A stretch of DNA of 32,000 nt from Clostridia bacterium (GCA_017934955.1 JAGBIO010000035.1:32057-64056), one strand, 5' to 3'. Shown: positions 3,635 through 30,924, numbered from the stretch's first letter. Notes: generated by a model not told the origin, from the sequence alone. Made by a program: numbers and translations.

Positions 3635-3787
3635 GTTACAGTTCAGATTCGAATTTATAGAGACAGCACAAACACTGTAGGGACAGCATTCATGCTGTCC
3701 ACAGAAAAGGCAGAAAGCAGGACAGCATAAATGCTGTCCCTACGATGATTGTGCCATCATTATAGAAGACATCGTCTGAACTGTAGC
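3635..3787. repeat. Two-hairpin REP/MITE-like element (repeat family 1), full-length copy
   Basis: Ends are GTTACAGTTCAGA...TCTGAACTGTAG. Internal palindromes are GGACAGCAT-TC-ATGCTGTCC (3681-3700) and GGACAGCAT-AA-ATGCTGTCC (3720-3739), separated by ACAGAAAAGGCAGAAAGCA. Confidence 0.88.
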
Positions 3788-3805
3788 CTCAATTGTTATT
3801 CAAAG

Positions 3806-4519
3806 TCAACACATTCCTCCGTTAACAGAAAGCACCTGACCGGTTATGTAATTCGACGCCTCTGACGCTAAAAAGAATACCGCTTCTGCAATATCTTCTA
3901 CTGTCCCGATTTGATTCATCGGCACTTCTTCTTTTAATTCCTCCAAATCAAACTGCCGATTCATCTCGGTATCAATAATCCCCGGAGCTACACAATTTAC
4001 TTCAATTCCCGACAACGCAAGCTCCTTGGCAAGTGCCTTTGTAAAACCGATTATGCCTGCTTTTGCGGCAGAATACGACACTTCGCAGGAAGCCCCTACT
4101 TCTCCCCAAATCGAAGAAACGTTAATCACTTTTCCTCTTTTTTCATGAATCATATAAGGAAGAACGCCCTTTGTGCAATTATATACGCCGGTTAAATTTA
4201 CCCGTATCATTTCATCCCAATCCTCATCCGTAATATCTGCAAACGGCTTAATCTGCGAAATTCCGGCATTATTTACCAAAATATCCACTCGTTTTAATTG
4301 TGTAAGCACAAAGTCCATCATCACTTTTACTTCCTGTCGATTTCCCACATCAGCTTTTACTAAAATCAGCTTATCCCCTAATTCTTCCCTCATTTTTAAC
4401 GCTTCTTGATAAGAATTCCGGTAATTCAACACAACCGTATCTCCCGCCGCAATAAATTTTCGGCAAATCGCCGCACCGATTCCCCGCGAACCGCCTGTCA
4501 CCAAAACAACTCTATTCAT
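3806..4519 (-). CDS. Short-chain dehydrogenase/reductase (3-oxoacyl-ACP reductase FabG-like)
   Basis: Motifs: VLVTGGSRGIG (Rossmann TGxxxGxG), NNAG, and a catalytic S...YSAAK (YxxxK). The start is chosen at the ATG giving MNRVVLVTGG. The upstream track start at 4552 adds 11 aa. Confidence 0.85.
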   Translation of the reverse strand: MNRVVLVTGGSRGIGAAICRKFIAAGDTVVLNYRNSYQEALKMREELGDKLILVKADVGNRQEVKVMMDFVLTQLKRVDILVNNAGISQIKPFADITDEDWDEMIRVNLTGVYNCTKGVLPYMIHEKRGKVINVSSIWGEVGASCEVSYSAAKAGIIGFTKALAKELALSGIEVNCVAPGIIDTEMNRQFDLEELKEEVPMNQIGTVEDIAEAVFFLASEASNYITGQVLSVNGGMC

Positions 4520-4563
4520 TTTCTCACAAACCTTTCTCACAATAATTTTCATCTTACCTATTT

Positions 4564-4651
4564 AGTCAAACTATATCACTACCATTGTACGGACAGCATT
4601 TATGCTGTCCTACTTTCTGCCTTTTCTATAAATTTGATTCTGAACTGTAAC
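4564..4651. repeat. Repeat family 1, single-hairpin deletion variant
   Basis: AGTCAAACTATAT...GTACGGACAGCATTTATGCTGTCC(4591-4610)TACTTTCTGCCTTTTCTATAAATTTGATTCTGAACTGTAAC. Relative to the copy at 30772-30924 it lacks the second hairpin, and the deletion lies between CTTTTCT direct repeats. Confidence 0.8.
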
Positions 4652-4777
4652 AAATTGTGTCCCTTCGATTGAAATATCGCTTGTAATATCTTACAAAATA
4701 TTGTATCATTATCTATGGATTACAGTATAACACAATCTAAAATACTGTTTCAATATTTACTTAATGGGGGTATACAA

Positions 4778-5752
4778 ATGAGAAAATATTCAGAACAAAC
4801 TTTTTCTGTCGGCTCGCCGATCTTCTTTATTTTATTGCTGTTAGTTACCGTAGCGGGATTTTCTATGAGAAAACCCATCGGCATGCCGGGATCGCTAAGT
4901 ACCGGAAACGCGTCGATACTTCACATGTTTGGATTTCCGCTTAACTTTCTGTATTCCAATCCGAACATTTTTCATTCGCTAAGCTTTATTCTAAACCTTG
5001 CTACAATTCCGGCTGTTTACTGTTTGGGAAAAGCTGCGATCGGAAGAGTCGCCGGTCTTACCGCTGCAACATTTGTTGCTTTTTACCCTTATTTTGCTGT
5101 TAACGTCTACTCCCCCAACACCTACTTTATCTTCTTTTTTACGCTTTATCTTACCTTTTTGTTTATCAGCTTAACGACCGGAAAAAGAAGATGGCACTAC
5201 GCGTCAGGTATTCTTTTTATGATTAGCGTCATGTTAGAACCAGCCGTATTAATTTTAGGACTGATTCCGTATATCTATAATTTAATTAAACAAAGACATA
5301 TCGCGTTGTTATATGCATTTTTGTTTTTCGTACTGGGACTCGTTACCACGCTTGGCTTATTTGTTTTAATTGCAGCCTTACAGTCAAGAAGCATCAACTT
5401 ACTTCCGCTTGGAAACGTATTTGGTGCATTTTGGAAAAATATTTTGTTATTCTGCAATAACCCTCTTAACTACATTACCAACGTCGTTTATCCATATCTA
5501 CAAAACAACTTCTTGCATCCTGTAACAAACGGGACACATGCTTATTTACACTATATCATTCTTACACTAACGGTTTTAGGGGCGCTTTATTCCTTCGTCA
5601 ACGAACATGTTCGCCTTCTCTCGATAATCTTGATTATTATGCTCTTAACCTTATGCTTTGTACCGTTTGAATACGCCGCCGTCCTTCTTATTTTAATCTT
5701 GTTGGCCGGCTATATGATAGATAAAGTAATTAACGATGTATTTATCCATTAA
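4778..5752 (+). CDS. Polytopic integral membrane protein (possibly GT-C/ArnT-PMT-like glycosyltransferase fold)
   Basis: ATG at 4778 follows GGGGG by 8 nt. There are about 9-10 hydrophobic segments. The function is a guess from overall appearance only. Confidence 0.55.
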   Translation: MRKYSEQTFSVGSPIFFILLLLVTVAGFSMRKPIGMPGSLSTGNASILHMFGFPLNFLYSNPNIFHSLSFILNLATIPAVYCLGKAAIGRVAGLTAATFVAFYPYFAVNVYSPNTYFIFFFTLYLTFLFISLTTGKRRWHYASGILFMISVMLEPAVLILGLIPYIYNLIKQRHIALLYAFLFFVLGLVTTLGLFVLIAALQSRSINLLPLGNVFGAFWKNILLFCNNPLNYITNVVYPYLQNNFLHPVTNGTHAYLHYIILTLTVLGALYSFVNEHVRLLSIILIIMLLTLCFVPFEYAAVLLILILLAGYMIDKVINDVFIH

Positions 5753-5766
5753 GAAAGGAATTTTCT

Positions 5767-6246
5767 ATGTTTCGCAAATTATTTGATAAAATCGATGAAC
5801 TAATTGAAAAATTTAATGAATTAACCAATTTAGATCAAATTGCTATCCAAATTCTTCATTTGATTGAAGAGGTTTTTACCGAAAACTTCTCGGAAGATAT
5901 GGCAGAAAATGAAAAACTCTTTGATGAAGTCATGCAACATTCCGGACTTTGGAAAACGATTGGCAAAAAGCTAAAAAAAGCCATTAAAGAAAAGGAAGAA
6001 TTCTTAAAACAACTCCTTTATATCGCCACCATCATGGCAGAATTCGAACGTCGTTACCGTCAAAAACAAAAAGGCTTAAAGAAAAGTAAAGAAATTGAAA
6101 AAATTATAAAAAAATATACCCGGTATATCCAAGAAGCCATCAAAAATAAAACCTTAGACAAAACTACCTTAGAGAAAACCATTAAAGAACTCCGCCGTTC
6201 CATGGAAAAGGAAATTAAATCGGTTTCCATGGAATTGGACCGATAA
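5767..6246 (+). CDS. Hypothetical K/E-rich coiled-coil protein (159 aa)
   Basis: ATG follows AAAGGAA. The composition is charged and heptad-like. A terminator follows. Confidence 0.6.
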   Translation: MFRKLFDKIDELIEKFNELTNLDQIAIQILHLIEEVFTENFSEDMAENEKLFDEVMQHSGLWKTIGKKLKKAIKEKEEFLKQLLYIATIMAEFERRYRQKQKGLKKSKEIEKIIKKYTRYIQEAIKNKTLDKTTLEKTIKELRRSMEKEIKSVSMELDR

Positions 6247-6271
6247 AAAAACGCCTAACCGGCGTTTTTTT
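6245..6271. terminator. Bidirectional rho-independent terminator between convergent genes
   Basis: AAAAAAACGCC-taacc-GGCGTTTTTTT. It overlaps the nadE stop codon. Confidence 0.8.
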
Positions 6272-8177: not shown

Positions 8178-8242
8178 AATATCTCTCCTTAGCATACCCT
8201 CAATTATTCTGCCATAATCTCTTTATATTTTAACATAATATA

Positions 8243-8293
8243 TATAAAAATAAAAGAGAAAACTTCCCCGCTTTCACGAGGAAGTTTTCTCTT
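8243..8293 (-). terminator. Rho-independent terminator of the 9239-8292 operon
   Basis: On the minus strand: AGAGAAAACTTCC-loop-GGAAGTTTTCTCT followed by TTTATTTTTAT. Confidence 0.7.
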
Positions 8294-9002: not shown

Positions 9003-9017
9003 TTTCAACGTCCTCCT

Positions 9018-9239: not shown

Positions 9240-9393
9240 ACGCTTCCGATTCTACTTTCATGTTACATCCTCACTTTCATCAACGTCCATAGCAAGAAGT
9301 TCTCTTACTATTCTTCCAAAATGCGACAACATTATTAATATATCACGTTCTATATATTATGTCAAACTTTGCATCACTCACACTTCACTTTCT

Positions 9394-9637
9394 GTTACTG
9401 CTCAGACTATATCCTCCTACAACGATGGTACAACCATTGTACGGACAGCATTTATGCTGTCCTGCTTTCTGCCTTTTCTGTGGACAGCATGGCAGTCAAA
9501 ACTTCCCAATCACTTCGTTCTTGGAGTTTCTTTGCACAGGACGTACAAGCCATTCACTTCGTTCATGGTGTTACGTCCGCGAATGCTGTCCCTACAGGGT
9601 TTGCGCCTTCTCTATAAATTTGATTCTGACCCGTAAC
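9394..9637. repeat. Repeat family 1 element carrying a nested family 3 module
   Basis: GTTACTGCTCAGACTATAT...GGACAGCAT-TT-ATGCTGTCC (9443-9462)...GGACAGCAT(9482-9490)[92-nt insert]ATGCTGTCC(9583-9591)...TCTATAAATTTGATTCTGACCCGTAAC. Confidence 0.88.
9491..9582 (-). repeat. Repeat family 3 module, copy B, inserted in the loop of a family 1 hairpin
   Basis: The reverse complement reads TCGCGGACGTAACACCAT[GAACGAAGTGA]ATGGCTTGTACGTCCTGTGCAAAGAAACTCCAA[GAACGAAGTGA]TTGGGAAGTTTTGACTGCC. Confidence 0.85.
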
Positions 9638-11537
9638 CACTTTCTACCTCTCTTTTGACACGGTTTCCTTTTTTCATCTCATCTGTCGGTGGTGTAAACT
9701 CACCATCTGGCGGTGTTTCTCTCATTCCTTTGTTTCCGCCAAAACCGCCTCCGCCAAAAGAACCTCTTCCGCTTTCGGCGCCTTCCTCATAAGCCTTTGT
9801 TATTCGACCGCTTATTGTAAATTCCATCACCTTGGTATCTCCTCGATAGAAGGAATATGTCTCACCTTCTTTTAATAATTCCGACGAAATTATCAAGGAC
9901 TGATACGCTTTTTTTGGTGAATAAGTTACCAAAATTCCACCTTCTGCATCTCGAATCGATGCTTCCCTTTCTGTCGCCTGTGAACCTGCTAAAAACAACA
10001 TGACAGAATTTTGTGAAGAACTTTCCGAAGGCGTTTGTGCCATTCCCGAACTTCCTGCTGCAATTAAAGTTCCGCCGGTAATTTCAAACACTCGATCATA
10101 ATCCAATGCCCCATTTCCGCTATTCGTCGGTCCATTCACCGTCACAAAACCACCCGACATATACGCCGAACCATTCACGTCAATTCCATCTCCCGACGCA
10201 TTAACGGAAATAATACCGCCACTAATCAATAATTTGTTTTCTCCTTCGGTATCGGTAAAACGATTCTGTCCCGGTCGTCCGTTAACAGAAGAAGCATCCA
10301 TACCGCCGGATACAATGATTCCGTCATCCGACGAAACCACTGTAATCTCTCCGCCGGAAATCGCAATGGAATTGCTCTCAATTCCTTCATAACTCTTATT
10401 TATCTGAATTTTCCCATCGGTAATCACAATCGCCGTATCCGCATGAATTCCGTCATCTCCCGAAGACGCAACAATCACGCCGTTATTGATAATCACCGTA
10501 TGATTACTATGAATCGAATCATCCAAAGAATCCAGTAAAAATGTTCCGCCGGTAATTAAAATGCTTTTTGATGCCTTTATCGCTTTATAGCTTCCTTCAT
10601 TCGTCTCTACCGCTTGTGTTTCTCTTCGTCCTGACATGCTATCCTGTTTCACAGCGGCTTTCTCACTGCCACCACCGGTTGTAACAGAAATTTCTCCTCC
10701 GGTAATAATTACATCGGTACTTGCTTGAATTCCATCGGATCCCGCTACAATCGAAATCTTTCCGCCATCAATTGCTATAAAACCTTTCTCTTCCGACTCG
10801 CTATTGGTAGATTTCATTCCGTCTCCGCCGGAAACGATTGAAATTGTCGCATCTTTTACCTGTAAATCATCTTTTCCCACAATTCCGTCATTCACTGCAT
10901 TTACCGAAATCTCTCCGCCGACAACTTTCAAAGAATCCTTTCCCTGAATTCCGTTATTGTACGTCGCATTTACCGCCAATTTTCCTGTACCGTTTATCGT
11001 AAAATCTGCTTTGCTGTAAATCGCCGCCGTCGTTTCATCACCTTCTGCTCTTGTTGCCGCATCGGTAATTATATTCGTCGTACCATCCGCTAACGAAAGA
11101 ATCACCTTTTCCGCCGACACAACTGAAATCGGTGCCGTTGAACCACTGCTAAGCGTTACTCCGTCAAGCAATAACGTCACAACATCATTTTCCTTCGCAT
11201 TTACAACAATCTGCCCATCTGTTAAACTGCCAATCACCCGATAAGTTCCTGCCGTTGTAATTTCCGCCGTATTTCCGTTCACTTTCACCTTACTGTCGGT
11301 AACCGATAGCGAAGTATTCTCCAAACGAATCTCGGTATATTCTTTTTCCTCCCAAGAAGAATCAAAGGTGTCATTCTCTTCAAAAGCAATCATATCCGTC
11401 GAAATAGAGGTATCTCCGTCAATCGACGCAAGCATATCTCCCGTAATATCTCCGGTTGCACTATCTTTCTTCTTACAAGCCGTCACAAAACAAATCAATA
11501 CCAGTAACGCCAAAATCAATCCCAATCTTTTTTTCAT
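9612..11537 (-). CDS. Lipoprotein with a parallel beta-helix-like repeat region (Cthe_2159-type carbohydrate-binding domain family)
   Basis: The signal peptide has a lipobox (LICFVTAC). Repetitive GG.I.V....DGI motifs are typical of right-handed beta-helices. ATG at 11537 is preferred because AGGTGA lies upstream. The last 8 codons and the stop lie inside the repeat at 9394-9637. Confidence 0.75.
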   Translation of the reverse strand: MKKRLGLILALLVLICFVTACKKKDSATGDITGDMLASIDGDTSISTDMIAFEENDTFDSSWEEKEYTEIRLENTSLSVTDSKVKVNGNTAEITTAGTYRVIGSLTDGQIVVNAKENDVVTLLLDGVTLSSGSTAPISVVSAEKVILSLADGTTNIITDAATRAEGDETTAAIYSKADFTINGTGKLAVNATYNNGIQGKDSLKVVGGEISVNAVNDGIVGKDDLQVKDATISIVSGGDGMKSTNSESEEKGFIAIDGGKISIVAGSDGIQASTDVIITGGEISVTTGGGSEKAAVKQDSMSGRRETQAVETNEGSYKAIKASKSILITGGTFLLDSLDDSIHSNHTVIINNGVIVASSGDDGIHADTAIVITDGKIQINKSYEGIESNSIAISGGEITVVSSDDGIIVSGGMDASSVNGRPGQNRFTDTEGENKLLISGGIISVNASGDGIDVNGSAYMSGGFVTVNGPTNSGNGALDYDRVFEITGGTLIAAGSSGMAQTPSESSSQNSVMLFLAGSQATEREASIRDAEGGILVTYSPKKAYQSLIISSELLKEGETYSFYRGDTKVMEFTISGRITKAYEEGAESGRGSFGGGGFGGNKGMRETPPDGEFTPPTDEMKKGNRVKREVESGYGSESNL

Positions 11538-11546
11538 TTTCTTCAC

Positions 11547-13350: not shown

Positions 13351-15678
13351 CTAATGCGTTATGCCAAGTTCACGATTTAATGCCTCACGTTTTCTTCTCA
13401 ATGTTTTTTCCTCTGTTATAACAGCCTGTTTCATTTTTCCCGTAACAGTCAATTTCAAATCCTGCAATTCTGCCAATCGCTTTTCTAAAACAGCATAAGC
13501 TTCCCTTAACTGCTGAACTTTTTCCTCTATTTGCATGTCTAAATTGTCTGCTTGTTTTGCCATTTCCGCTTGTTTCCCCTTATAACCGAAATCAATAGAA
13601 TGTTGCTGTTTTGCTTGCTGAATCACATCTAAGTCAATTTCTCCCTTCACTACTTTTGATAACGTTCTATTCACATTTGTATAACAACATTGATCCTGCA
13701 AAACATATTGGACGTAATCTTTTGCCAAATCCACATCACCTTGTGAAATCTCCTTTGTCACTGTTTTTCCGGTCTTTAAATCCACATAACCGATCCGAGC
13801 ATCGTCGCCAAATTTATACGGGCTTCTGTAACCTTTTACTCGACTCACTTCTTGGTACATCCCGCGAATAAACTTTGTTAATGATTTTTCATTTTTACAA
13901 ACTCTCTGAATCATCTCAATTTTCATAACAATGAGATCAATTTGTCTCGCAAGGGATCCCTCTTCTATTGTAAATAAGCGCACGTATTGGGGAAATGTTA
14001 ACTGCTGACTTACTATCCCTTCTGCAAATTTTTCAAATAAATGTTGTTTTTCTTGGGTAATACAATCTCTTACTAAAACATCAAAGTTTACGGTTTTTTT
14101 CAAATATTCCTCTAAGGATAATTCTCCGGAAATCAATCTTTTCCGGACATTTCTAACCTTTGCCAAATACTTTTCCGAATTTTTCTGCAATGTATCTTTT
14201 AACTTCTCCTCATCTATTTTATCACCGCAAGTCTCGCGAACAATGTGTAAAATCGTTTCAAACTCCTCCTGCGTCATTCCTTTTCTTTCTGCAAATGCCT
14301 TTTTACTTTCACTTCCCTGCGTAAATTCTCTCACTAAAGCAATTCCAAAATACTCTTCACCGGAATTCTTTATAATTCCTTGACAATCAAAACCCAGTTC
14401 ATTAACTCCTTCTCTATTTAAGCCTTTTCTATCATATCCGTCTTTATTATAACCGGCTTGGTCATAGCCTTCTTCATCATACCCCATTTCGTTATATCCT
14501 TCTCGATTATAACCGGCTTGATTATATCCTTTATCATCATAGAATGTTCCATTTCTATGCTTTCCGCACGCATTAAATCCGTTTCGATCAAATCCGCTTC
14601 GATCATAACCCGCTTCATTATAACCGGTGAAATCATAACCTTCTTCATCATATTTTGTGCCATTTTTATGTAATCTCGTTTTATGAAAGCCCCTTTTGTT
14701 GTAACCTTCTCTATCATAGCCATACCGATTATATCCTTCTCTGTTATATCGATCTCTATCATAACCGGCTTTATTGTACCCCTCTTTATCATAACCATAC
14801 CTATCATATCCGGCTGCATTATAACCACTTTTATCATATCCGAATGCATTATATTTCGTTCCATTTTTATGCAGCCCATCTTTGTTAAAGCCTGCCGCAT
14901 CGTACCCACTTCTATCATAACCGGCTTTATTATAGCCCTCTTTATTATAACCGGCTTTATCATAGCCGAACTTATCATAACCTGCTCTGTTATAGCCTTC
15001 TTGGTCATATCCTAAAATATCATAACCTTCTTCATCGTATTTTGTTCCGTTTTTATGCAACCCATCTCTGTTAAATCCTTTTTTATTAAAACCTTTTTTA
15101 TTATAGCCTTCTTGATCATATCCAAAATAATCGAAACCATGAGAATCGTATCTTGTTCCGTTTTTATGAAGATTGCCTCGACTAAATCCGTTTCGATCAA
15201 ACCCTCTTTTATCATATCCGTATTTATCGTATCCGTCTCGATCATATCCGAACTTATTATATCCGTTTTTTTTGTAACCATCCCTATCAAAACCTTCTCT
15301 GTTAAAACCTGCCCGATTATATCCATCTCTATCGTATCCACTTAAATTATATCTTGTTCCATTTTTATAAATTCCTTCACTGTTAAAACCTTCTCGGTCA
15401 TACCCCTCTCGATCGTAACCTTTCCGATTATAACCCTTTTTATCATACCCTTCTCGGTCGTAACCCTCTCGATCATACCCTCTTTTGTTATACCCCTCTC
15501 GGTCATATCCTTCTCGATCATAGCCCTCTCGGTCATATCCTTCTCGATCATAACCATGCCGATCGTAGCCAAAACTATCATAACCTTCTTCATCATACCA
15601 TGTACCATTTTGATGTTTTCCTCTACGCCCGGTCGGTGTAATTCTAAATCCTCTTTCGTCATACTGTATCTCTTTCAT
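13351..15678 (-). CDS. 775-aa protein with a roughly 400-aa N-terminal array of G-[YF]-[DN]-x-x pentapeptide repeats, a unique C-terminal domain and a coiled-coil tail
   Basis: ATG at 15678 sits 7 nt after GGAGG. The sequence GYDREGYDREGYDREGYDREGYNKRGYDREGYD... is punctuated seven times by [HK][KQR]NGT.Y. The non-repetitive C-terminal half ends in a heptad-rich segment. Confidence 0.85.
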   Translation of the reverse strand: MKEIQYDERGFRITPTGRRGKHQNGTWYDEEGYDSFGYDRHGYDREGYDREGYDREGYDREGYNKRGYDREGYDREGYDKKGYNRKGYDREGYDREGFNSEGIYKNGTRYNLSGYDRDGYNRAGFNREGFDRDGYKKNGYNKFGYDRDGYDKYGYDKRGFDRNGFSRGNLHKNGTRYDSHGFDYFGYDQEGYNKKGFNKKGFNRDGLHKNGTKYDEEGYDILGYDQEGYNRAGYDKFGYDKAGYNKEGYNKAGYDRSGYDAAGFNKDGLHKNGTKYNAFGYDKSGYNAAGYDRYGYDKEGYNKAGYDRDRYNREGYNRYGYDREGYNKRGFHKTRLHKNGTKYDEEGYDFTGYNEAGYDRSGFDRNGFNACGKHRNGTFYDDKGYNQAGYNREGYNEMGYDEEGYDQAGYNKDGYDRKGLNREGVNELGFDCQGIIKNSGEEYFGIALVREFTQGSESKKAFAERKGMTQEEFETILHIVRETCGDKIDEEKLKDTLQKNSEKYLAKVRNVRKRLISGELSLEEYLKKTVNFDVLVRDCITQEKQHLFEKFAEGIVSQQLTFPQYVRLFTIEEGSLARQIDLIVMKIEMIQRVCKNEKSLTKFIRGMYQEVSRVKGYRSPYKFGDDARIGYVDLKTGKTVTKEISQGDVDLAKDYVQYVLQDQCCYTNVNRTLSKVVKGEIDLDVIQQAKQQHSIDFGYKGKQAEMAKQADNLDMQIEEKVQQLREAYAVLEKRLAELQDLKLTVTGKMKQAVITEEKTLRRKREALNRELGITH

Positions 15679-16838: not shown

Positions 16839-16893
16839 AGCCGTAAAAAACTGTTTTGAAAATTTTATTTTTCCAAGGCAGTTTTTTACAGTC
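16839..16893. repeat. Repeat family 2, collapsed copy
   Basis: CCGTAAAAAACTG-TTTTGAAAATTTTATTTTTCCAAGG-CAGTTTTTTACAG. It matches the right arm, plus a stub of the left arm, of the 1286-1512 element. Confidence 0.75.
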
Positions 16894-16907
16894 TCTTCCT
16901 TTTGTAC

Positions 16908-16927
16908 GGACAGCATTTATGCTGTCC
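16908..16927. repeat. Solo family 1 palindrome between convergent genes (possible bidirectional terminator)
   Basis: GGACAGCAT-TT-ATGCTGTCC lies 4 nt beyond the stop of the RluA-family gene. Confidence 0.8.
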
Positions 16928-19361: not shown

Positions 19362-19400
19362 ATTGTATAGGCAAAATCTTTGATTTTTCCTATACAACAA
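19362..19400. repeat. Repeat family 4 hairpin, copy 2
   Basis: The sequence ATTGTATAGGCAAAATCTTTGATTTTTCCTATACAACAA matches the core at 1782-1820 exactly. Confidence 0.8.
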
Positions 19401-19404
19401 AACA

Positions 19405-19431
19405 GCGAGTAAAGTTTCTATCTTTACTCGC
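19405..19431. terminator. Terminator hairpin downstream of hpf
   Basis: GCGAGTAAAG-tttctat-CTTTACTCGC has T/A runs on both sides. Confidence 0.7.
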
Positions 19432-19971: not shown

Positions 19972-20061
19972 AATCATTTCTCCTTTCTGATTCTTACACC
20001 TTATATTTATCATAATTTTACAGTAAAAACAAGAGTTTATCATTAATTTATAGGTTTCATA

Positions 20062-20215
20062 GTTACTAATCAGACTTAAAATTATAAAAATGTTACGAAC
20101 ACTGTAGGGACAGCATTTATGCTGTCCACAGAAAAGGCGTAAAGCAGGACAGCATGAATGCTGTCCCTACAATGGTTGTAGCATCATTATAAAAAGCTAT
20201 AGTCTGACCTGTAAC
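20062..20215. repeat. Repeat family 1, full-length two-hairpin copy
   Basis: GTTACTAATCAGAC...GGACAGCAT-TT-ATGCTGTCC (20108-20127)...GGACAGCAT-GA-ATGCTGTCC (20147-20166)...AGTCTGACCTGTAAC. Confidence 0.88.
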
Positions 20216-21353
20216 GTTTCATAATTTCTTCATATAAATCTTTTAACGTTTGCACCGAAAACGACTCCGTCTTTTGAAGTGTATGCTTCTTGGCAAGTTC
20301 ATCGGTATAATCCGAAAGTTTATATGTCGAATAATATTTGCCGGAATAATGTGTCACTACAGGAATCATATCATATTCCTTTATTTTAACCTCACCGTTT
20401 TTCTCCCGCACCAATCGAATCTCCGCCATACCGCCCAAAATTCTCGGCACTGCTTTCTGATTCGACATAAAGTTTCCTAAAGAATAATAAACTAACCCCG
20501 TATTTCCATTTGTCGTCGTAACCATGCCATACGGCTCCAAAACATGTGGATGCGCGCAAAGAACAATATCCGCCCCGTTATCAATACAAAAATCCACATA
20601 TTTTTCGTGATATTTTGTCGGCTGATACACATATTCCGTCCCGATATGCAAAATCGGAATCAAAATATCGCTGTTTTCCTTCGCTTCTTTTAAGATTTTT
20701 GCAAGCTCCTCATCATCCCCCAAAACATCTACCATATATTCCTTATCCTTTGGAAGATTTAATCCGTTTAATCCAAAAGTATAATTCACAAACGCCATTT
20801 TAATGCCATTTTTCTCTAAATACATAATATCACTTTCTTCCGGCGTCTCATGAATCCCCAAAACTTTCATCTCCGGATAATGATTTTTCCAAAAACGCAA
20901 CGTATCTAAAATACCGCTTGTCCCCTTATCGTTGGTATGATTTGTCGCATGCGCCGTTACATCAAAACCCGCCTTTGCAATCGCATCTCCCACTTCCGTC
21001 GGACTGCCAAAGGTCGGATAAGAACTATATCTCGACTCATCCTCCACCAAAATCGTCTCCTGATTAATAATCGCCACATCCGCCGACTCAATCTCTTCCT
21101 TCACATTTTCAAACAACATATCAAAATTATAACCATTCTCGGTCTTTGCTGCAAAATATACCGAATTGTGAATTAAATTATCCCCCACCATCCGTATCAA
21201 TACTTCCTCCGGGACTTCTTCGACCAAAGGTGTATCATCACTCTGTGCATAGGCAGCCTTGTCCAATCTATCGGAAAAACAATAAAATGCAACAAACACA
21301 CCGACAATCACTAAAATTCCCAAAATAATCAATATTACTCTCTTTCGATTCAT
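20187..21353 (-). CDS. CapA-family (PGA_cap metallophosphatase-like) membrane-anchored protein
   Basis: It has an N-terminal transmembrane segment. MVGDNLIH, NQETIL, ATNHTND and CAHPHVLEP are typical CapA/YwtB motifs. The last 9 codons and the stop lie inside the repeat at 20062-20215. Confidence 0.85.
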   Translation of the reverse strand: MNRKRVILIILGILVIVGVFVAFYCFSDRLDKAAYAQSDDTPLVEEVPEEVLIRMVGDNLIHNSVYFAAKTENGYNFDMLFENVKEEIESADVAIINQETILVEDESRYSSYPTFGSPTEVGDAIAKAGFDVTAHATNHTNDKGTSGILDTLRFWKNHYPEMKVLGIHETPEESDIMYLEKNGIKMAFVNYTFGLNGLNLPKDKEYMVDVLGDDEELAKILKEAKENSDILIPILHIGTEYVYQPTKYHEKYVDFCIDNGADIVLCAHPHVLEPYGMVTTTNGNTGLVYYSLGNFMSNQKAVPRILGGMAEIRLVREKNGEVKIKEYDMIPVVTHYSGKYYSTYKLSDYTDELAKKHTLQKTESFSVQTLKDLYEEIMKRYRSDYSFL

Positions 21354-22083: not shown

Positions 22084-22103
22084 GGACAGCATGAATGCTG
22101 TCC
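22084..22103. repeat. Solo family 1 palindrome
   Basis: GGACAGCAT-GA-ATGCTGTCC is followed by CTACAACAAAAGTTGT. Confidence 0.8.
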
Positions 22104-22130
22104 CTACAACAAAAGTTGTCTCAATTCAAA

Positions 22131-23654: not shown

Positions 23655-23707
23655 GAAAGCCTCACCTCAGTTTTTATATCGGCAAATAATGGTAGAAAAT
23701 TAGAAAA

Positions 23708-24515: not shown

Positions 24516-24547
24516 ATAAACTCTCCTTAATCCATTGTAGCCATTGT

Positions 24548-24611
24548 GGACAGCATAAATGCTGTCACTACGAGAAAATGTTGATTTGTACGGACAGCAT
24601 TCATGCTGTCC
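24548..24611. repeat. Two family 1 palindromes without the usual element ends
   Basis: GGACAGCAT-AA-ATGCTGTCA (24548-24567) and GGACAGCAT-TC-ATGCTGTCC (24592-24611). Confidence 0.8.
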
Positions 24612-24616
24612 ATTTC

Positions 24617-24643
24617 AAAAAAAAGGGCTCTAATGGCCCTTTT

Positions 24644-24646
<3 letters not shown>
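24617..24646 (-). terminator. Rho-independent terminator of gyrB
   Basis: AAAAAAAAGGGC-tctaatg-GCCCTTTTTT lies immediately after the gyrB stop. Confidence 0.8.
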
Positions 24647-26632
<1,986 letters not shown>

Positions 26633-26680
26633 TCAATACGTTACGATTTTATATCTTTCTAAAAACAAATATACTCTACC

Positions 26681-26705
26681 GTACGGACATAATTTATTGC
26701 GTCAA
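26681..26705. repeat. Possible decayed family 1 palindrome
   Basis: GTACGGACATAATTTATTGCGTC resembles GTACGGACAGCATTTATGCTGTC with several changes that break the pairing. Confidence 0.35.
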
Positions 26706-26706
26706 A

Positions 26707-27030
26707 TCAGCTCAGTTCCAACCCACTTGACGAACGTTTTAAAAGTGTCGCCGACGATATATTGGTAAGATATATCTTGTCCTTATTGTTTTTTGAAGAT
26801 TTCTTTTTTTCCTTCGACTCCCTCAAACTGTTTTTTAACCCTTTTGTCCTCTTAGAAGTAAGCACAAAAGACTTGGGTATATCGGTACAAATCGTTTCAA
26901 TCAAACCTTTTTCCTCACACTTTTTCAGATAAATCTGCGTGTTCTTTGAAACGCTCGCCGTATCTAAATTACACATCATCACGATATCCTTTTGTTTGAC
27001 GTAAACGTCATTTCCCAAATGCAAAAACAT
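26707..27030 (-). CDS. DUF370 / RemB(YaaB)-like protein
   Basis: MFLHLGNDVYVKQKDIVMMCNLD...IYLTNISSATLLKR matches the DUF370 pattern. Its position immediately upstream of gyrB is as in Bacillus. ATG at 27030 sits 5 nt after GGAGGT. The C-terminus has an unusual K/S-rich insertion. Confidence 0.8.
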   Translation of the reverse strand: MFLHLGNDVYVKQKDIVMMCNLDTASVSKNTQIYLKKCEEKGLIETICTDIPKSFVLTSKRTKGLKNSLRESKEKKKSSKNNKDKIYLTNISSATLLKRSSSGLELS

Positions 27031-27095
27031 AGCTACCTCCAACGTCTTAGATAATATCATTTTTCTCACTATTCGTCAATCTTTCAAGCACATTT

Positions 27096-28673
27096 TTACT
27101 GTCGAGAAACCGTTAAATTTTCTAATCCGTAATAAATATTTTTCATATTTGAATCTAACTTTTCCTCAATCTTCTTCGCATAATACACCGTCGATGTTTC
27201 AAAATAAAGACCCATAATCGGGAGTTCCCGATAAAGGATTTCCTGCAATTTATCAAAATACTCCTTACTCTTCCCCTCCAAATACTCTCGCTGTGCAAGA
27301 TACACATAATAGTCATAGTCCTTATCACTAAACCCAAACACATTATTTACCGCATTCGTCTCAAAATGATACAAAAACTCCGGATAATCCGAAATTGACC
27401 AATCCGTTAATGCCAAATCATAGTTTTTCTTCGAAATCGCTTCATTAAAATCAAAAGAAGATTTTGTCTCAATTTGAATCTCGATCCCCAACGATTTTAA
27501 ATTTTCCTTGATAAACTCAGCCTTTTCCTTTGAAAGTTCCGTATCTGCATTAATCAGTAAACGAAATGCTAACTTTGCTTTCTCTTTTTCGCGAATTCCA
27601 TTCTTCATACTCCAATCCGCCGCATCCAACAAATCCTGTGCTCTTTCCGGATTATAAGCATATTTATTGAGATTCCGATTATTCAAATAAGAAGACGGAT
27701 TGATCGGCAAATCGGTAGAAACACCGTAACCATTTAAGTACTTTTCAATCATTTGATCTCGATTGATGCCCAACAAAATCGCCTGTCGAACATTTTCCTC
27801 CGCTAATGCCGTATTCGTTGGAGAAACTATAATTCCCTCAAAAATTCCCGTGGTATATTTGCTGTTATAATAGGCACTTCTTCCGTATGCCCCTACCTCC
27901 GTATTGGTGTCCGCAATATCAATTTCACCAAGTTTTAATAACTCAAATCCCGGTCTTGAAGTCGCCGCAATTTTCACAATAATCTTCGCAATATTTCCTT
28001 CTGTTTTCTGAAAATAACTTTGATTTTTGCCCAAAATCATTTCATTAGTACTCACTTTTGTCTGTTTATACGCGCCGGTCCCAACATATTCCTTCGAAAC
28101 CCGCAAATCCTTATTGCCGTAAAAAGACTTTGAGAGAATCGGGAAATCCAATTTATTCGGCAGGAAATTATCCGATTGTGCCAGCGTAATTTTAATCGTA
28201 TCTTCCGAGATTTTTTCATAAGCCGTAATATTCGCGATATGATAAGAAAAATACGACTCTGCACCTAAGTCTTTGATTTTATCCATCGTAAAAATAACAT
28301 CATCCGCCGTTAATTTCGTTCCGTTATGAAAATAAATCGAATCGTTCAACACAACTTCCCATACCGTCAGCGACGCATCCGGCGTAATTGTCTTCGCCAA
28401 ACAATTCTTCGCCTTTAATTCCGAATCAATCTCTGTAAGACCGTTAAACACCAAATTCGAAATATTTTGAATATATTTGTTCTGTGAAACCAACGGATTA
28501 AAATAATCCGGTGCAATCACCAACAAATTAAGCGTTTCTTCCGTATTATTGACGCCCATATTTTCAGAAATATTTTTCTCTTGTAACTTTTTATATTCCA
28601 AAGAAAAAAAGACTACGTTTATCATCACTGCCAAAAGAATCAGCAATAAAATAACCTTTACCTTTTGTTTCAT
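27096..28673 (-). CDS. Family 5 extracellular solute-binding protein (Opp/Dpp/Nik-like), membrane-anchored
   Basis: ATG at 28673 sits 7 nt after AAAGAGGA. An N-terminal transmembrane anchor is followed by an SBP_bac_5-like sequence. No permease or ATPase genes are adjacent. Confidence 0.8.
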   Translation of the reverse strand: MKQKVKVILLLILLAVMINVVFFSLEYKKLQEKNISENMGVNNTEETLNLLVIAPDYFNPLVSQNKYIQNISNLVFNGLTEIDSELKAKNCLAKTITPDASLTVWEVVLNDSIYFHNGTKLTADDVIFTMDKIKDLGAESYFSYHIANITAYEKISEDTIKITLAQSDNFLPNKLDFPILSKSFYGNKDLRVSKEYVGTGAYKQTKVSTNEMILGKNQSYFQKTEGNIAKIIVKIAATSRPGFELLKLGEIDIADTNTEVGAYGRSAYYNSKYTTGIFEGIIVSPTNTALAEENVRQAILLGINRDQMIEKYLNGYGVSTDLPINPSSYLNNRNLNKYAYNPERAQDLLDAADWSMKNGIREKEKAKLAFRLLINADTELSKEKAEFIKENLKSLGIEIQIETKSSFDFNEAISKKNYDLALTDWSISDYPEFLYHFETNAVNNVFGFSDKDYDYYVYLAQREYLEGKSKEYFDKLQEILYRELPIMGLYFETSTVYYAKKIEEKLDSNMKNIYYGLENLTVSRQ

Positions 28674-28797
28674 TTCGTTATCCTCTTTCAAATCAAATTT
28701 ATTTCTTCCCTATTGTATAAGAAAAAAAAACGAAATACAAGTTTTTTATCACATTTTACAAAATTTAACATTAAGGATCAGACTATAAATTTATAAC

Positions 28798-29155
28798 TTT
28801 CGAAAAATATCGGTAGAATGCGGTTTGTTCTTAAACTCTGTACGGACAGCATTTATGCTGCCCTGCTCTTCTGCCTATTCTGTAGACAGCATTGTGGACG
28901 TAGCACCGTAAGCGTACTTATTACAATTCAGACTATATCTCCTACAATAATGGTACAACTATTGTAGGGACACAATTCGCGGACATAACACCATGAACGA
29001 AGTGAATGGTTTGTATGTCCTGTGCAAAGAAACTACAAGAACGAAGTGCTTGGGAAGTTTCGACTGCTATTGTGTCCGCGAAATAGGCAGACAGTAGAAT
29101 TAGGACACAATGAATTGTGTCCCTACAAACCGCCTTCCGCCGATATTTTTCGAAA
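28798..29155. repeat. Compound repeat region bounded by a roughly 30-bp inverted repeat
   Basis: TTTCGAAAAATATCGGTAGAATGCGGTTTG (28798-28827) pairs with CAAACCGCCTTCCGCCGATATTTTTCGAAA (29126-29155). Inside are a family 1 palindrome (28844-28863), a truncated one, a second family 1 element with variant stems GGACACAAT/ATTGTGTCC, and a nested family 3 module. Confidence 0.8.
28977..29068 (+). repeat. Repeat family 3 module, copy C, nested in the loop of a variant family 1 hairpin
   Basis: GGACACAAT|TCGCGGACATAACACCAT[GAACGAAGTGA]ATGGTTTGTATGTCC...ACAA[GAACGAAGTGC]TTGGGAAGTTTCGACTGCT|ATTGTGTCC. Confidence 0.85.
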
Positions 29156-29237
29156 ATTACAAATCTATACGCTTTTCCTTTCTTTTATCATAAAACAAAA
29201 ACCTTGGAGTAATTATACTGCCAAGGCTTTCGCTATA

Positions 29238-29720
29238 CTACCACTCTTTCTTATAATTTACCAATTCCGAAATATATCCCGTTAAGCAATAAGGTGCCAA
29301 CATAAACGCATACAATAAAACGTAAAAAATAAACGCCAAGAAACTTCTTTTTTCTAATTTACATCCGATTTCTTTTAACATATTTTTTCTTTGGATTTCA
29401 ATAACTAAGCAAAGCAACATTCCAGCAAAAATAACCAGTAGCGACAACCATCCGATCAGTAAGGGATTTCCAAACGCCAATAAGATTAACCCAAGCGGTA
29501 CAAAAATCAGAAGCGCAAGGTCAATAAACGGGAAAAACACATTTAAGCACATTAAGAATTTAGACCTGCCGTTAAGTTTCTCGGAAGTTACGGTTTTTAC
29601 TCTCTTAAAAGCCTCCACCATACCTCTGGCCCATCTTTTTCTTTGACGACCTAAGTTGCCCAACGTCTCAGGAACCTCTGTAAACGCAATAGCATCCGTT
29701 TTTATAGTCACAGATAACAT
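29238..29720 (-). pseudogene. 3' remnant of a processive family-2 glycosyltransferase (PgaC/IcaA-like)
   Basis: Only the C-terminal roughly 155 aa are present. They contain AFTEVPETLGNLGRQRKRWARG (the Q-x-x-RW motif) and C-terminal transmembrane helices. The catalytic N-terminal roughly 250 aa with the D,D,D motifs are absent. Homology ends near 29700. Confidence 0.75.
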
Positions 29721-30114
29721 GGGAAAAGAAACAGATGAAAAAAAATATTTAGACTGGGAGCAATGTATCGAAATGCAAAACAGCGGACTTGTAGAAATTT
29801 TCAGCCACGGTAAACGGCACGTATTTTACGATGAGCTGCCTGCTCAAGCGATTCTTAACGATGTAAAGGAATCTTATGAAATGATAGAAAAAAATTTAGG
29901 AAGTAAAAACTTGAAAGTGTTCGCTTACCCTTACGGGGCATATACAAAAGAAACCGTATGGGTTCTAAAACGAAATGGAATCGATATGCAGGTTTACGAT
30001 ATCGGAATAAATTATTTTAACAGTTTTGACAAAAATTATGTAAAAAGAATCAATATGCCCTGTGAAATGACAGGAAAAGAAATTATAGAAGAAATCAATA
30101 ATCCCCAATTATAA
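29701..30114 (+). pseudogene. 3' remnant of a polysaccharide deacetylase (NodB-homology domain)
   Basis: FIVTDNMGKETDEKKYLDWEQCIEMQNSGLVEIFSHGKRH...FAYPYGAY is present. The N-terminal part, including the TFDDG-type metal motif, is missing. The first ATG is at 29719. Confidence 0.7.
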
Positions 30115-30134
30115 ACAGGGATTATTGATTTCTT

Positions 30135-30440
30135 CTATTCAAACAATATTTTCATATAATCTCTTTTTCCACTTAATACTCTATAAACAAATAAATATTC
30201 CGAATTAAGCTTATAAAATATTATGTATTCATCCACTATTAAATATCTATAATTCGTTTTTAATGCTATCTTTTTAGATAAATCCATACTTAGTTCCGGA
30301 AATTGTGCTAAATTTTCTATTGAGTCTGTGATTCTTTTTATAGAATGAGTAATAGCACTTGTATTTTCTTCTTTTATATATTCTTTAATCTCTTTAATAT
30401 CATTAATTGCAATCGGATTAATTTTTACCTTTCGTTCCAT
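30135..30440 (-). CDS. Type II toxin, ParE/RelE superfamily
   Basis: The gene encodes 101 aa and follows the Phd-like antitoxin after a 4-nt gap. The central and C-terminal segments YRYLIVDEYIIFYKL...YRVLSGKRDY resemble ParE/RelE-type toxins. Confidence 0.8.
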   Translation of the reverse strand: MERKVKINPIAINDIKEIKEYIKEENTSAITHSIKRITDSIENLAQFPELSMDLSKKIALKTNYRYLIVDEYIIFYKLNSEYLFVYRVLSGKRDYMKILFE

Positions 30441-30444
30441 ACTA

Positions 30445-30693
30445 TTAATCCTCCAGCGCCTCTTTTAATTCAGAAAACTCCAACCATTCTGCTTCCGATT
30501 TAACCGCATTTTCAGCCTCAGCAAGTTTTGATATAAGTTTTAAAGTTGCCTGTTGTTTTTCATATTCTTTTATATCTATAATTACATACTTTCCTCTACC
30601 ATTTTTTGTTAAAAATACAGGATTTCCATTCTCACATTCTACTAATACTTCATTATAATTTCTTAAATCCGATACCGGCTTTATATTTGGCAT
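30445..30693 (-). CDS. Type II antitoxin, Phd/YefM family
   Basis: MPNIKPVSDLRNYNEVLVECENGNPVFLTKNGRGKYVIIDIKEYE is a Phd/YefM N-terminal fold signature. ATG at 30693 follows GAGGTG. Confidence 0.85.
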   Translation of the reverse strand: MPNIKPVSDLRNYNEVLVECENGNPVFLTKNGRGKYVIIDIKEYEKQQATLKLISKLAEAENAVKSEAEWLEFSELKEALED

Positions 30694-30771
30694 ATTCACC
30701 ACCTCTACTAATAGTATACACAAATCAATCGTAAAATACAACTTAAAATATTAAGATTTTTTTATCAATAA

Positions 30772-30924
30772 GTTACAAGTCAGACTATATCGTCCTACAA
30801 TGATGCGCAGCCATTGTGCGGACAGCATTTATGCTGTCCTGCTTTCTGCCTTTTCTGTGGACAGCATAAATGCTGTCCCTACAGTGTTTGTGTCTTTTCT
30901 ATAAATTTGATTCTGAACTGTAAC
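30772..30924. repeat. Repeat family 1, best-preserved full-length copy (opposite orientation to 3635-3787)
   Basis: GTTACAAGTCAGACTATAT...GGACAGCAT-TT-ATGCTGTCC (30820-30839) TGCTTTCTGCCTTTTCTGT GGACAGCAT-AA-ATGCTGTCC (30859-30878)...TCTATAAATTTGATTCTGAACTGTAAC. Confidence 0.9.

What the first reader, a model, noticed from the sequence alone, without database searches (positions are those of the whole stretch)
3635..30924. A two-hairpin palindromic repeat family (GGACAGCAT-N2-ATGCTGTCC) fills nearly every sizeable intergenic region
I count at least 16 copies of the 9+2+9 palindrome at 9 loci in 32 kb.

- Palindrome positions: 3681, 3720, 4591, 9443, the split copy at 9482/9583, 16908, 20108, 20147, 22084, 24548, 24592, 28844, 30820 and 30859. 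There are also variant-stem copies at 28968/29071 (split) and 29103, and a possible decayed copy at 26681.
- Full elements are about 153 bp (3635-3787, 20062-20215, 30772-30924). They end in GTTACAGTTCAGA / TCTGAACTGTAAC-like terminal inverted repeats and have a fixed spacer (ACAGAAAAGGCAGAAAGCA) between the two hairpins. They occur in both orientations.
- Variants include a one-hairpin deletion derivative (4564-4651), solo hairpins (16908, 22084), hairpin pairs without element ends (24548-24611) and nested composites (9394-9637, 28798-29155).
- Every copy is intergenic or clips a gene's 3' end. No transposase or RAYT-like gene is in the window.

This copy density is unusual. The elements could be REP- or MITE-like non-autonomous mobile DNA, terminators or mRNA stabilisers, or binding sites for a dimeric protein.
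Basis: seen in the sequence. Interest (0 to 1): 0.65.

Follow-up and report, generated by a model that had tools for sequence, protein, structure and literature searches.

The report
REP-hairpin pair inside a miniature transposon
The repeat is real: it is a small non-coding jumping element of about 153 bp, with inverted ends and 8-bp insertion footprints, whose core is a pair of the GTAG-tagged "REP" hairpins known from other bacteria; this joins two known kinds of bacterial junk DNA in an uncultured gut Clostridia bacterium.

Summary
GGACAGCAT-NN-ATGCTGTCC occurs 13 times in 32 kb (0 expected by chance). With two split copies and one variant-stem copy that makes 16 hairpins at 9 loci.

New findings:
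1. Every hairpin carries a GTAG/GTAC foot on the 5' side or CTAC on the 3' side. This is the signature of GTAG-type REP sequences. The identical 20-mer is repeated in Chloroflexota, Clostridia and Bacteroidota genomes, and in two of them it lies next to a RAYT (Y1 HUH transposase) gene.
2. The 153-bp units are inverted REP pairs (REPIN-like) enclosed in 13-nt terminal inverted repeats (GTTACnnnTCAGA).
3. All five complete copies are flanked by an 8-bp direct repeat in exact register. HUH/RAYT transposition is not known to leave such a footprint; DDE-type MITEs do.
4. A close relative (GyrB 95% identical) has empty sites, a 63-nt version with the same ends but no hairpins, and a bare hairpin pair elsewhere. 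More distant relatives have none.

Best reading: a chimeric MITE carrying a REP pair, moved in trans, alongside bare REPs in the same genome. No transposase or RAYT was found in the 52 kb I could reach, so the mobilising enzyme is inferred. This is a new variant of known kinds, of moderate interest.

The parts
3635..3787 (-). Complete 153-bp element (R-arm to L-arm on the + strand). It has TIRs GTTACAGTTCAGA / TCTGAACTGTAGC and two REP hairpins at 3681-3700 and 3720-3739 with outer GTAG and CTAC feet. The 8-bp flanking repeat is CTCAATCG (3627-3634) / CTCAATTG (3788-3795).
4564..4651 (+). One-hairpin derivative: a truncated L-arm, GTAC plus the hairpin at 4591-4610, the spacer, then the R-arm end. 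The second hairpin was lost between CTTTTCT direct repeats. It lies between divergent genes.
9394..9637 (+). Complete element with a 92-nt unrelated repeat (9491-9582) inserted in the loop of its second hairpin. It has a perfect 8-bp flanking repeat, CACTTTCT (9386-9393 / 9638-9645). Its R-arm supplies the last 8 codons and the TAG stop of gene 9612-11546.
16904..16927 (+). Solo REP: GTAC foot plus the GGACAGCATTTATGCTGTCC hairpin, between convergent genes.
20062..20215 (-). Complete 154-bp element with a perfect 8-bp flanking repeat, GTTTCATA (20054-20061 / 20216-20223). Its L-arm supplies the last 11 codons (RYRSDYSFL and stop) of the PGA_cap gene 20187-21353.
22084..22107 (-). Solo REP (hairpin plus CTAC foot). 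The insert is absent from the orthologous intergenic region of relative L095.
24548..24611 (.). Two REPs with their feet facing each other (hairpin-CTAC, 16 nt, GTAC-hairpin) and no element ends. They are inserted between the gyrB terminator and the lspA ribosome-binding site. About 100 nt is absent in relatives L095-L097.
26677..26704 (+). Possible decayed variant-stem REP (GTAC GGACATAATTTATTGCGTC). The resemblance is weak.
28798..29155 (.). Mosaic of a type-1 REP (28844), a half hairpin (28884), an L-arm (28920), a type-2 REP split by the 92-nt repeat (28968/29071; insert 28977-29067) and a type-2 REP (29103). It is enclosed by different outer arms (TTTCGAAAAATATCGG...).
30772..30924 (+). 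Complete 153-bp element (L-arm to R-arm) with hairpins at 30820 and 30859. The 8-bp flanking repeat is ATCAATAA / ATAAATAA. As a single strand it folds into one long hairpin.

Best explanation
The family is non-autonomous mobile DNA built from two layers.

**Inner layer.** This is an inverted pair of GTAG-type REP hairpins: 5' GTAG-GGACAGCAT-NN-ATGCTGTCC, a 19-nt spacer, then GGACAGCAT-NN-ATGCTGTCC-CTAC 3'. That is a REPIN-like doublet of the kind associated with RAYT (TnpA-REP, Y1 HUH) transposases of subclass 2.4.

**Outer layer.** This is a pair of about 45-nt arms ending in 13-nt terminal inverted repeats (GTTACnnnTCAGA). It makes the 153-bp unit a MITE.

**Shown.**
- Complete units are inserted with an 8-bp target-site duplication.
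- They occur in both orientations.
- They land in intergenic DNA or in the last codons of genes.
- They decay by deletion between short direct repeats.

**Inferred.**
- Complete units are moved in trans by a DDE-type transposase of an insertion sequence encoded elsewhere in the genome, because staggered-cut integration is what gives 8-bp duplications.
- A REP pair became part of a small TIR element once, and the chimera then multiplied.
- The bare single and paired REPs in the same genome and in its close relative belong to a RAYT-driven REP population.

Any effect on neighbouring genes (mRNA 3'-end stabilisation, altered C-termini, promoter-like GTTACA-18-TATAAT in one arm) would be a by-product.
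For: **The repeat is real.** There are 13 matches against 0 expected. Complete copies are 83-89% alike over 153 bp.

**REP identity.**
- Each of 15 hairpins has a GTAG, GTAC or GTGC foot on the 5' side or CTAC on the 3' side, always on one side only. In doublets the feet are on the outer sides.
- The exact 20-mer is repeated in Chloroflexota, Clostridia, Muribaculum and Poribacteria genomes with the same feet.
- In L081 it and a sister hairpin flank a Y1 HUH gene (PNHFHAIV...SRYYDHAIR). In L084 it lies 30 nt from another such gene.
- Homologues of these proteins are named 'REP element-mobilizing transposase RayT' and carry PF01797.
- In 37 of 46 metagenomic loci of this protein family, a GTAG-stem-loop-CTAC hairpin of the same design lies inside the gene. 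The same hairpin often flanks the gene too. This is the feature Quentin et al. describe for subclass 2.4 (PMC6006769).
- The two stem variants, GGACAGCAT/ATGCTGTCC and GGACACAAT/ATTGTGTCC, differ by compensating changes.

**MITE identity.**
- All 5 complete copies have TIRs.
- All 5 have an 8-bp flanking direct repeat with 0 or 1 mismatch, only at the exact register. The empirical chance is 7e-4 per element.

**Mobility.**
- Relatives with GyrB 85-89% identical have no such hairpin in 17-22 kb each.
- The relative with GyrB 95% identical lacks the inserts downstream of gyrB and of the response-regulator gene. It has a 63-nt element with the same termini but no hairpins, about 16 nt from the window's insertion. 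It also has a bare type-2 doublet where the window has none.

**Structure.** The single strand folds as one long hairpin, with z = -6.3 as DNA and -7.3 as RNA.
Against: - No transposase of any kind and no RAYT gene was found in the 52 kb of this organism that I could read. Both proposed enzymes are therefore inferred.
- No insertion sequence with matching ends was found in plasmid, phage or viral collections.
- The 63-nt hairpin-less element in the relative could be a central deletion of the chimera rather than its ancestor.
- The bare REPs could be decay products of complete elements rather than an independent RAYT-driven population.
- The L081 protein scores below the Pfam cut-off for Y1_Tnp (15 bits against 23). 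Its family assignment rests on motifs and on its homologues.
- Genome-wide copy number could not be measured.
Confidence: 0.6

Rival explanations
1. A pure REPIN-RAYT system. The whole 153-bp unit, arms included, is cut and pasted as single-stranded DNA by a RAYT encoded elsewhere. No DDE transposase is involved, and the 8-bp duplications arise from how this RAYT lineage or host repair integrates the element.
For: - The hairpins have GTAG feet in REPIN arrangement.
- The same hairpin lies next to RAYT genes elsewhere.
- The unit folds as one long hairpin.
- Y1 enzymes of the IS200/IS605 family cut at a distance from their hairpins, so conserved arms are not excluded (established knowledge of IS608).
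- How REPs spread is still stated to be unknown (PMC8266576).
Against: - Y1 HUH transposition (IS200/IS605) makes no target-site duplication, and none is reported for REPs or REPINs in the papers read.
- All 5 complete copies here have one.
- The relative has an element with the same ends and no hairpins.
- Bare REP pairs have neither the ends nor a duplication.

The last two points suggest that ends and hairpins are separable modules.
Confidence: 0.15
2. An ordinary MITE whose internal hairpins come from the subterminal structure of its parent insertion sequence. The likeness to GTAG REPs would be coincidental, and no RAYT is involved at any stage.
For: - TIRs and 8-bp duplications are present.
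- No RAYT was found in 52 kb.
- With only about 3 free stem positions in the GGAC-NNN-AT design, identical stems in unrelated lineages can arise by chance (inference).
Against: - The foot, stem length, loop length and GGAC start all match the hairpins of RAYT loci.
- The very same 20-mer flanks RAYT genes in L081 and L084.
- Bare single and paired hairpins occur without the MITE arms in the window and in the relative. They keep only the GTAG/GTAC foot.
- Two stem variants coexist and are mixed within one TIR pair.
Confidence: 0.15
3. A host regulatory element (transcription terminator, mRNA stabiliser, or site for a DNA-binding protein) kept in place by selection. Its spread would be secondary.
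For: - Most copies lie between genes on the same strand, just downstream of a coding region.
- GTAG REPs elsewhere are proposed to act as RNA elements (PMC3733652).
- The stable fold holds as RNA.
Against: - The hairpins have no T-run. Only one was picked up by the terminator scan, and on the strand opposite to the genes.
- A separate, conserved terminator precedes the pair downstream of gyrB.
- The elements are absent from orthologous sites in relatives.
- They occur in both orientations and carry target-site duplications.
Confidence: 0.1

Closest known systems
GTAG-type REP sequences and REPINs with their RAYT / TnpA-REP transposases (Nunvar 2010; Bertels and Rainey 2011, PMC3116915; Di Nocera 2013, PMC3733652; subclass 2.4 of Quentin 2018, PMC6006769)
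   Same: - A short perfect palindrome with a GTAG foot.
- Extragenic and multi-copy.
- Inverted doublets with a conserved spacer that fold into a larger hairpin.
- Several stem variants in one genome.
- Singlets and dimers of both polarities.
- The identical hairpin next to RAYT genes in other genomes.
- The same hairpin design inside and around subclass-2.4 RAYT genes.
   Different: - Complete units carry extra arms of about 45 nt ending in TIRs and are flanked by 8-bp target-site duplications, which is not described for REPs or REPINs.
- The host is a Clostridia bacterium. Firmicutes are not mentioned in the 2013 survey of GTAG REPs.
- The cognate RAYT of this genome was not found.
Bacterial MITEs such as Correia/NEMIS, RUP, ERIC and MITEAba12
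   Same: - 100-300 bp and non-coding.
- Terminal inverted repeats and a target-site duplication of fixed length.
- Many copies in intergenic DNA.
- Occasional fusion to gene ends.
- A long-hairpin fold.
- Mobilisation in trans.
   Different: - The core is a pair of REP hairpins that also exist on their own in the genome.
- No parent insertion sequence is known.
- The ends (GTTAC...) match no family I could test. IS66-type elements have GTAA ends and 8-bp duplications, but that is recalled from memory, not tested.
BIMEs of E. coli and the REP-plus-unrelated-stem-loop 'TIR' structures of Pseudomonas (Di Nocera 2013)
   Same: Mosaics in which REP units are joined to other conserved motifs and then repeated many times.
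   Different: Those mosaics are not reported with terminal inverted repeats plus target-site duplications. Here, nesting also involves a third, unrelated 92-nt repeat inserted in the hairpin loop.

Membership tests
GTAG REP / REPIN-RAYT system | Short palindromic stem-loop tagged on one side by GTAG (or a close variant) | tested here: met
   All 15 scored hairpins have GTAG, GTAC or GTGC on the 5' side or CTAC on the 3' side.
GTAG REP / REPIN-RAYT system | Many extragenic copies across the genome | tested here: inconclusive
   There are 11 loci in the 52 kb reachable, and contigs of other assemblies break at the repeats. The whole genome was not available.
GTAG REP / REPIN-RAYT system | Inverted REP doublet with a conserved spacer that folds into a larger hairpin (REPIN) | tested here: met
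   A 19-nt spacer is shared by the copies. The two hairpins pair with each other in the minimum-energy fold, with z = -6.3 and -7.3.
GTAG REP / REPIN-RAYT system | A cognate RAYT gene in the same genome, flanked by the same REP | not testable with these tools
   None was found in the window or in 20 kb of flanks. The lineage-specific motif was absent from the JGI metagenome collection. In other genomes the same 20-mer does lie beside RAYT genes (L081, L084).
GTAG REP / REPIN-RAYT system | Insertion without target-site duplication, as expected for Y1 HUH single-strand transposition | tested here: not met
   All 5 complete 153-bp units have 8-bp duplications. The bare doublet in L096 shows none.
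MITE (non-autonomous TIR transposon) | Terminal inverted repeats | tested here: met
   GTTACnnnTCAGA is present at both ends of every complete copy.
MITE (non-autonomous TIR transposon) | Target-site duplication of fixed length | tested here: met
   It is 8 bp with 0-1 mismatch in 5 of 5 copies, only at the exact register. The chance is 7e-4 per element.
MITE (non-autonomous TIR transposon) | Small, no coding capacity, multiple dispersed copies, presence/absence differences between relatives | tested here: met
   The units are 153 bp. There are 5 complete and several partial copies, and relatives have empty or differently occupied sites.
MITE (non-autonomous TIR transposon) | A parent insertion sequence with the same ends | not testable with these tools
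   No transposase was found in 52 kb. There was no match in plasmids or phages, and the viral-contig matches to the end motif are unrelated.
Intrinsic transcription terminator | GC-rich hairpin followed by a T-run on the transcribed strand | tested here: not met
   No T-run follows the hairpins. One of about 10 in the scanned part was flagged, on the strand opposite to the genes. A separate terminator precedes the pair downstream of gyrB.
Rfam RNA families | Match to a curated covariance model | tested here: not met
   The only hit on an element is mir-144 at 29 bits against a gathering score of 60, which is noise.

The most novel reading that the evidence does not exclude
The 8-bp duplications are the integration footprint of the REPIN itself. 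On this reading, subclass-2.4 RAYT systems, or a host pathway they recruit, insert REP doublets by a route that duplicates the target. Alternatively, a REPIN has been captured by a DDE-type MITE, so that one small element can be moved by two unrelated transposition machineries. Either reading would give a sequence-level handle on how REPs spread, which the literature still calls unresolved.
Probability: 0.15. Interest if true: 0.75.

Novelty: new variant of a known kind. Interest (0 to 1): 0.5.

Why it matters
REPs and REPINs are among the commonest bacterial repeats, yet how they spread is still not established (PMC8266576). This case offers three things:
- The REP doublet sits inside a unit with clean ends and clean 8-bp footprints.
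- A close relative carries the same ends without the hairpins, and the hairpins without the ends.
- A third repeat targets the hairpin loop.

That makes the lineage a natural test of whether REP pairs move by themselves, hitch-hike on other transposons, or both. It also extends GTAG-type REPs to gut Clostridia. Finally, these elements rewrite the C-termini of at least two host proteins and fragment metagenome assemblies.

Tried and rejected
**Rfam.** A scan of the whole window at E<=1 found nothing credible on the elements.

**Search for the RAYT of this organism.**
- phmmer with E. coli RayT and with the Muribaculum RAYT against all six-frame ORFs of the window and loci found only L081 and L084.
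- Extending the window by 10 kb on each side found none. One look-up was wasted on a wrong start codon.
- Scanning RAYT homologues for peptides that an in-frame GGACAGCAT or GGACACAAT hairpin would encode found none among 238.
- A metagenome scan with the lineage-specific hairpin-plus-spacer motif returned nothing.

**Search for a parent insertion sequence.**
- blastn of the element against plasmids and phages gave no match.
- A viral-contig scan with the end motif gave 31 hits. Most are coding-sequence coincidences. Three are AT-rich phage contigs where the motif follows TATATA; it is not an element end there.

**Interpretations rejected.**
- Terminator.
- CRISPR. The spacing is irregular, both orientations occur, and the one CRISPR-DR50 hit at 16843-16889 is far below threshold and lies on a different repeat.

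**A point of caution.** I first took the identical 20-mer in distant phyla as a sign of horizontal transfer. Only the hairpin is shared, not the arms, and the design leaves few free positions, so recurrence is not compelling evidence of transfer.

Full report
**1. The observation**

GGACAGCATNNATGCTGTCC, searched with up to 2 mismatches, matches 13 times in the 32-kb window.

Reading the sequence confirms the other copies:
- the split copy at 9482/9583;
- a split copy with a variant stem at 28968/29071;
- an intact variant, GGACACAATGAATTGTGTCC, at 29103.

The repeat finder and an alignment show complete units at 3635-3787, 20062-20215 and 30772-30924. With a 92-nt insert removed, 9394-9637 is a fourth. 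Mean column identity is 87% over about 153 bp.

The copy at 4564-4651 has lost its second hairpin between two CTTTTCT repeats.

Nine of the 15 intergenic regions of at least 100 bp hold a member. That is a majority, not 'nearly every' one.

**2. The organism**

- G+C is about 39%, with strongly negative GC skew and most genes on the minus strand.
- The window is identical to gut-type metagenome contigs.
- Its GyrB is 73-74% identical to Petroclostridium and 71% to Hungateiclostridium. Uncultured relatives reach 85-95%.
- It is therefore an uncultured Clostridia bacterium.
- No ORF in the window resembles a Y1 transposase. Pfam finds no transposase among the unassigned ORFs.

**3. The hairpins are GTAG-type REPs**

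*Feet.* Every hairpin has a four-base foot on one side only: GTAG, GTAC or GTGC on the 5' side, or CTAC on the 3' side. In the doublets the feet are on the outer sides, in the form GTAG-hairpin, spacer, hairpin-CTAC.

In them the exact 20-mer is repeated in Chloroflexota/Anaerolineae, Clostridia, Muribaculum, Poribacteria and other MAGs. It almost always has GTAG or CTAC at its foot. It is often 15-25 nt from a sister hairpin of the same design, such as GGACGCCATnnATGGCGTCC or GGACGGGATATATCCCGTCC.

*RAYT neighbours.*
- In L081 (Muribaculum), arrays of these hairpins flank an ORF with the HUH motif PNHFHAIV and the tyrosine motif SRYYDHAIR. The ORF was found with E. coli RayT as seed. Pfam gives only a sub-threshold Y1_Tnp match.
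- In L084 (a Clostridia MAG), GTAGGGACAGCATATATGCTGTCC lies 30 nt from a homologous gene.
- Homologues number in the thousands. Many carry PF01797 and the source name 'REP element-mobilizing transposase RayT'.
- Their motifs (NH[IVF]H, WQ, YIxNNP) match subclass 2.4 of Quentin et al. 2018. That paper singles the subclass out for REP insertions inside the transposase gene (PMC6006769).

*Metagenomic loci.* I see the same feature. In 37 of 46 metagenomic loci, a GTAG-stem-loop-CTAC hairpin lies about 250 nt into the gene. The same hairpin often lies within 130 nt on either side.

*Conclusion.* The window's hairpin fits this design exactly. The two stem variants in this genome differ by compensating changes (GC to CA, paired with GC to TG). 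These keep the hairpin rather than the sequence.

*Literature.* Di Nocera et al. list GTAG REPs in Proteobacteria, Cyanobacteria, Chloroflexi and the PVC group. The paper does not mention Firmicutes (PMC3733652).

**4. The 153-bp unit is also a TIR element with target-site duplications**

- Beyond the GTAG and CTAC feet, conservation continues for about 45 nt on each side. It ends in GTTACnnnTCAGA at both ends.
- I added 10 kb on each side of the window. This gave a fifth complete unit, 256 bp long, holding a type-2 and a type-1 doublet within one pair of ends.
- All five complete units are flanked by 8-bp direct repeats: CTCAATCG/CTCAATTG, CACTTTCT/CACTTTCT, GTTTCATA/GTTTCATA, ATCAATAA/ATAAATAA and TTGTGATT/TTGTAATT.
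- The match exists only at the exact register and vanishes at offsets of 1 to 6 bases.
- The empirical chance of at most one mismatch is 7e-4 per element.
- Y1 HUH transposition of the IS200/IS605 type makes no duplication (established knowledge of that family). None of the REP/REPIN papers I searched reports one.
- Eight-base duplications point to staggered-cut integration by a DDE-type transposase.

**5. Relatives show gain and loss**

- Six loci from relatives with GyrB 85-89% identical (G+C 32-33%) have no GGAC...GTCC hairpin in 17-22 kb each.
- The relative with GyrB 95% identical (L095-L097, 82-90% nucleotide identity) keeps gene order. It lacks the roughly 100-nt insert with two REPs between the gyrB terminator and lspA. 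It also lacks the roughly 60-nt insert with the solo REP downstream of the response-regulator gene.
- Between SBP and remA, this relative has a bare type-2 doublet with GTAG and GTAC feet, no GTTAC ends and no duplication. The window has nothing at that site.
- Next to the PGA_cap gene it has a 63-nt palindromic element, GTTACAAGTCAGACT...AGTCTGATTTGTAAT. This has the same termini as the window's unit and no hairpins. It is inserted about 16 nt from the window's insertion point, with its own approximate 8-bp repeat.
- Ends and hairpins are therefore separable modules. All the window's complete units share the same junctions, so they descend from one chimera.
- Whether the 63-nt form is the ancestor or a central deletion is open.

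**6. Structure and side effects**

- As a single strand, the unit folds into one long hairpin in which the two REPs pair with each other. The energy is -28.7 kcal/mol as DNA (z = -6.3) and -55.3 kcal/mol as RNA (z = -7.3).
- The hairpins lack T-runs. Only one was flagged by the terminator scan, on the non-coding strand.
- Two insertions hit the ends of genes. The element supplies GYGSESNL-stop to gene 9612-11546 and RYRSDYSFL-stop to the PGA_cap gene. The relative's PGA_cap protein ends differently.
- One arm contains GTTACA-18-TATAAT, a promoter-like match of unknown significance.

**7. Verdict**

The family is real, is mobile DNA, and is best described as a chimeric MITE carrying a REPIN-like pair of GTAG REPs, alongside bare REPs.

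- Shown: the repeat, its architecture, the feet, the TIRs, the duplications, the differences among relatives, and the association of this hairpin design with RAYT genes elsewhere.
- Inferred: the enzymes that move it in this genome.

It is a new variant of known kinds. It is interesting mainly because the duplications and the separable modules bear on the unresolved question of how REPs spread.

Noticed in passing
window 9491-9582 (-), 28977-29067 (+), 1629-1720 (+); partial copy in L180 7406-7465: A third repeat of about 92 nt. Two copies are inserted exactly in the apical loop of a REP hairpin, splitting it. It forms two stem-loops whose loops share GAACGAAGTGA, and four pairs show compensating changes among three copies. 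It has no terminal inverted repeats, no Rfam match, and was seen only in this organism's contigs. It could be a hairpin-loop-targeting single-strand transposon remnant or a structured RNA.
   Followed up: partly
window 1332-1466 (-), flanked by 1283-1335 and 1463-1515; half copy at 16851-16887: A sub-threshold match to the TwoAYGGAY RNA family (37.2 bits against a gathering score of 43, E = 0.015). It is enclosed by a 53-nt inverted repeat that is 94% complementary. One arm of that repeat recurs 15 kb away beside a solo REP. Contigs of other assemblies end here.
   Followed up: partly
window 1776-1824 and 19363-19408: Another two-copy palindromic repeat (TTGTATAGGCAAAATCTTTGATTTTTCCTATACAA), 96% identical, in two intergenic regions. 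Each copy is followed by an A/T-rich run.
   Followed up: no
L100-L179 (RAYT loci), e.g. L165 4264, L156 4269, L112 4260; proteins P0123, P0130, P0083: In 37 of 46 metagenomic RAYT loci, a GTAG-hairpin-CTAC lies in frame inside the transposase gene just after the HUH motif. It encodes peptides such as VGNAYMRSL. Some genes carry two, a whole doublet, as in VGDAYMRPHQGNAFMHSL. Quentin et al. 2018 already noted this for subclass 2.4. The co-variation of the internal and flanking hairpins is striking.
   Followed up: partly
window 9612-9637 and 20187-20215: Two host genes (Cthe_2159-domain protein and PGA_cap) take their last 8-11 codons and their stop codon from the arm of an inserted element. 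Both tails begin (G/R)Y(G/R)S(E/D).
   Followed up: yes
window 1865-2650 (-) and 2830-3501 (-): Tandem paralogous genes of 261 and 223 aa, about 89% identical at the DNA level over 300 nt, with identical upstream regions (2639-2754 against 3490-3605, 97%). They have no Pfam match.
   Followed up: no
window 13351-15678 (-): A 775-aa protein whose N-terminal 450 residues are dozens of degenerate five-residue repeats (GYDRE, GYNKA and similar; 15-nt period). It has no Pfam match.
   Followed up: no
window 29238-29720 (-) and 29656-30114 (+): Overlapping fragments on opposite strands: a glycosyltransferase-2 C-terminal part and a polysaccharide deacetylase. They lie next to the mosaic element at 28798-29155 and a ParE/Phd toxin-antitoxin pair. 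This looks like a rearranged or decaying region.
   Followed up: no
L195 812-829, L205 201-218, L197 4430-4447 (viral contigs, G+C 24-29%): The element's end motif GTTACAG(T/A)TCAGACTATA occurs in AT-rich phage contigs directly after TATATA-type sequence. Related copies lie in the same orientation upstream of genes. No inverted partner or transposase was seen, and the relation to the window's element is unexplained.
   Followed up: partly
window 20186-20215 (-), 30772-30801 (+), 28920-28948 (+): The L-arm of the element contains a promoter-like GTTACA, 17-18 nt, TA(T/C)AAT directed into the element. It is a consensus match only.
   Followed up: no
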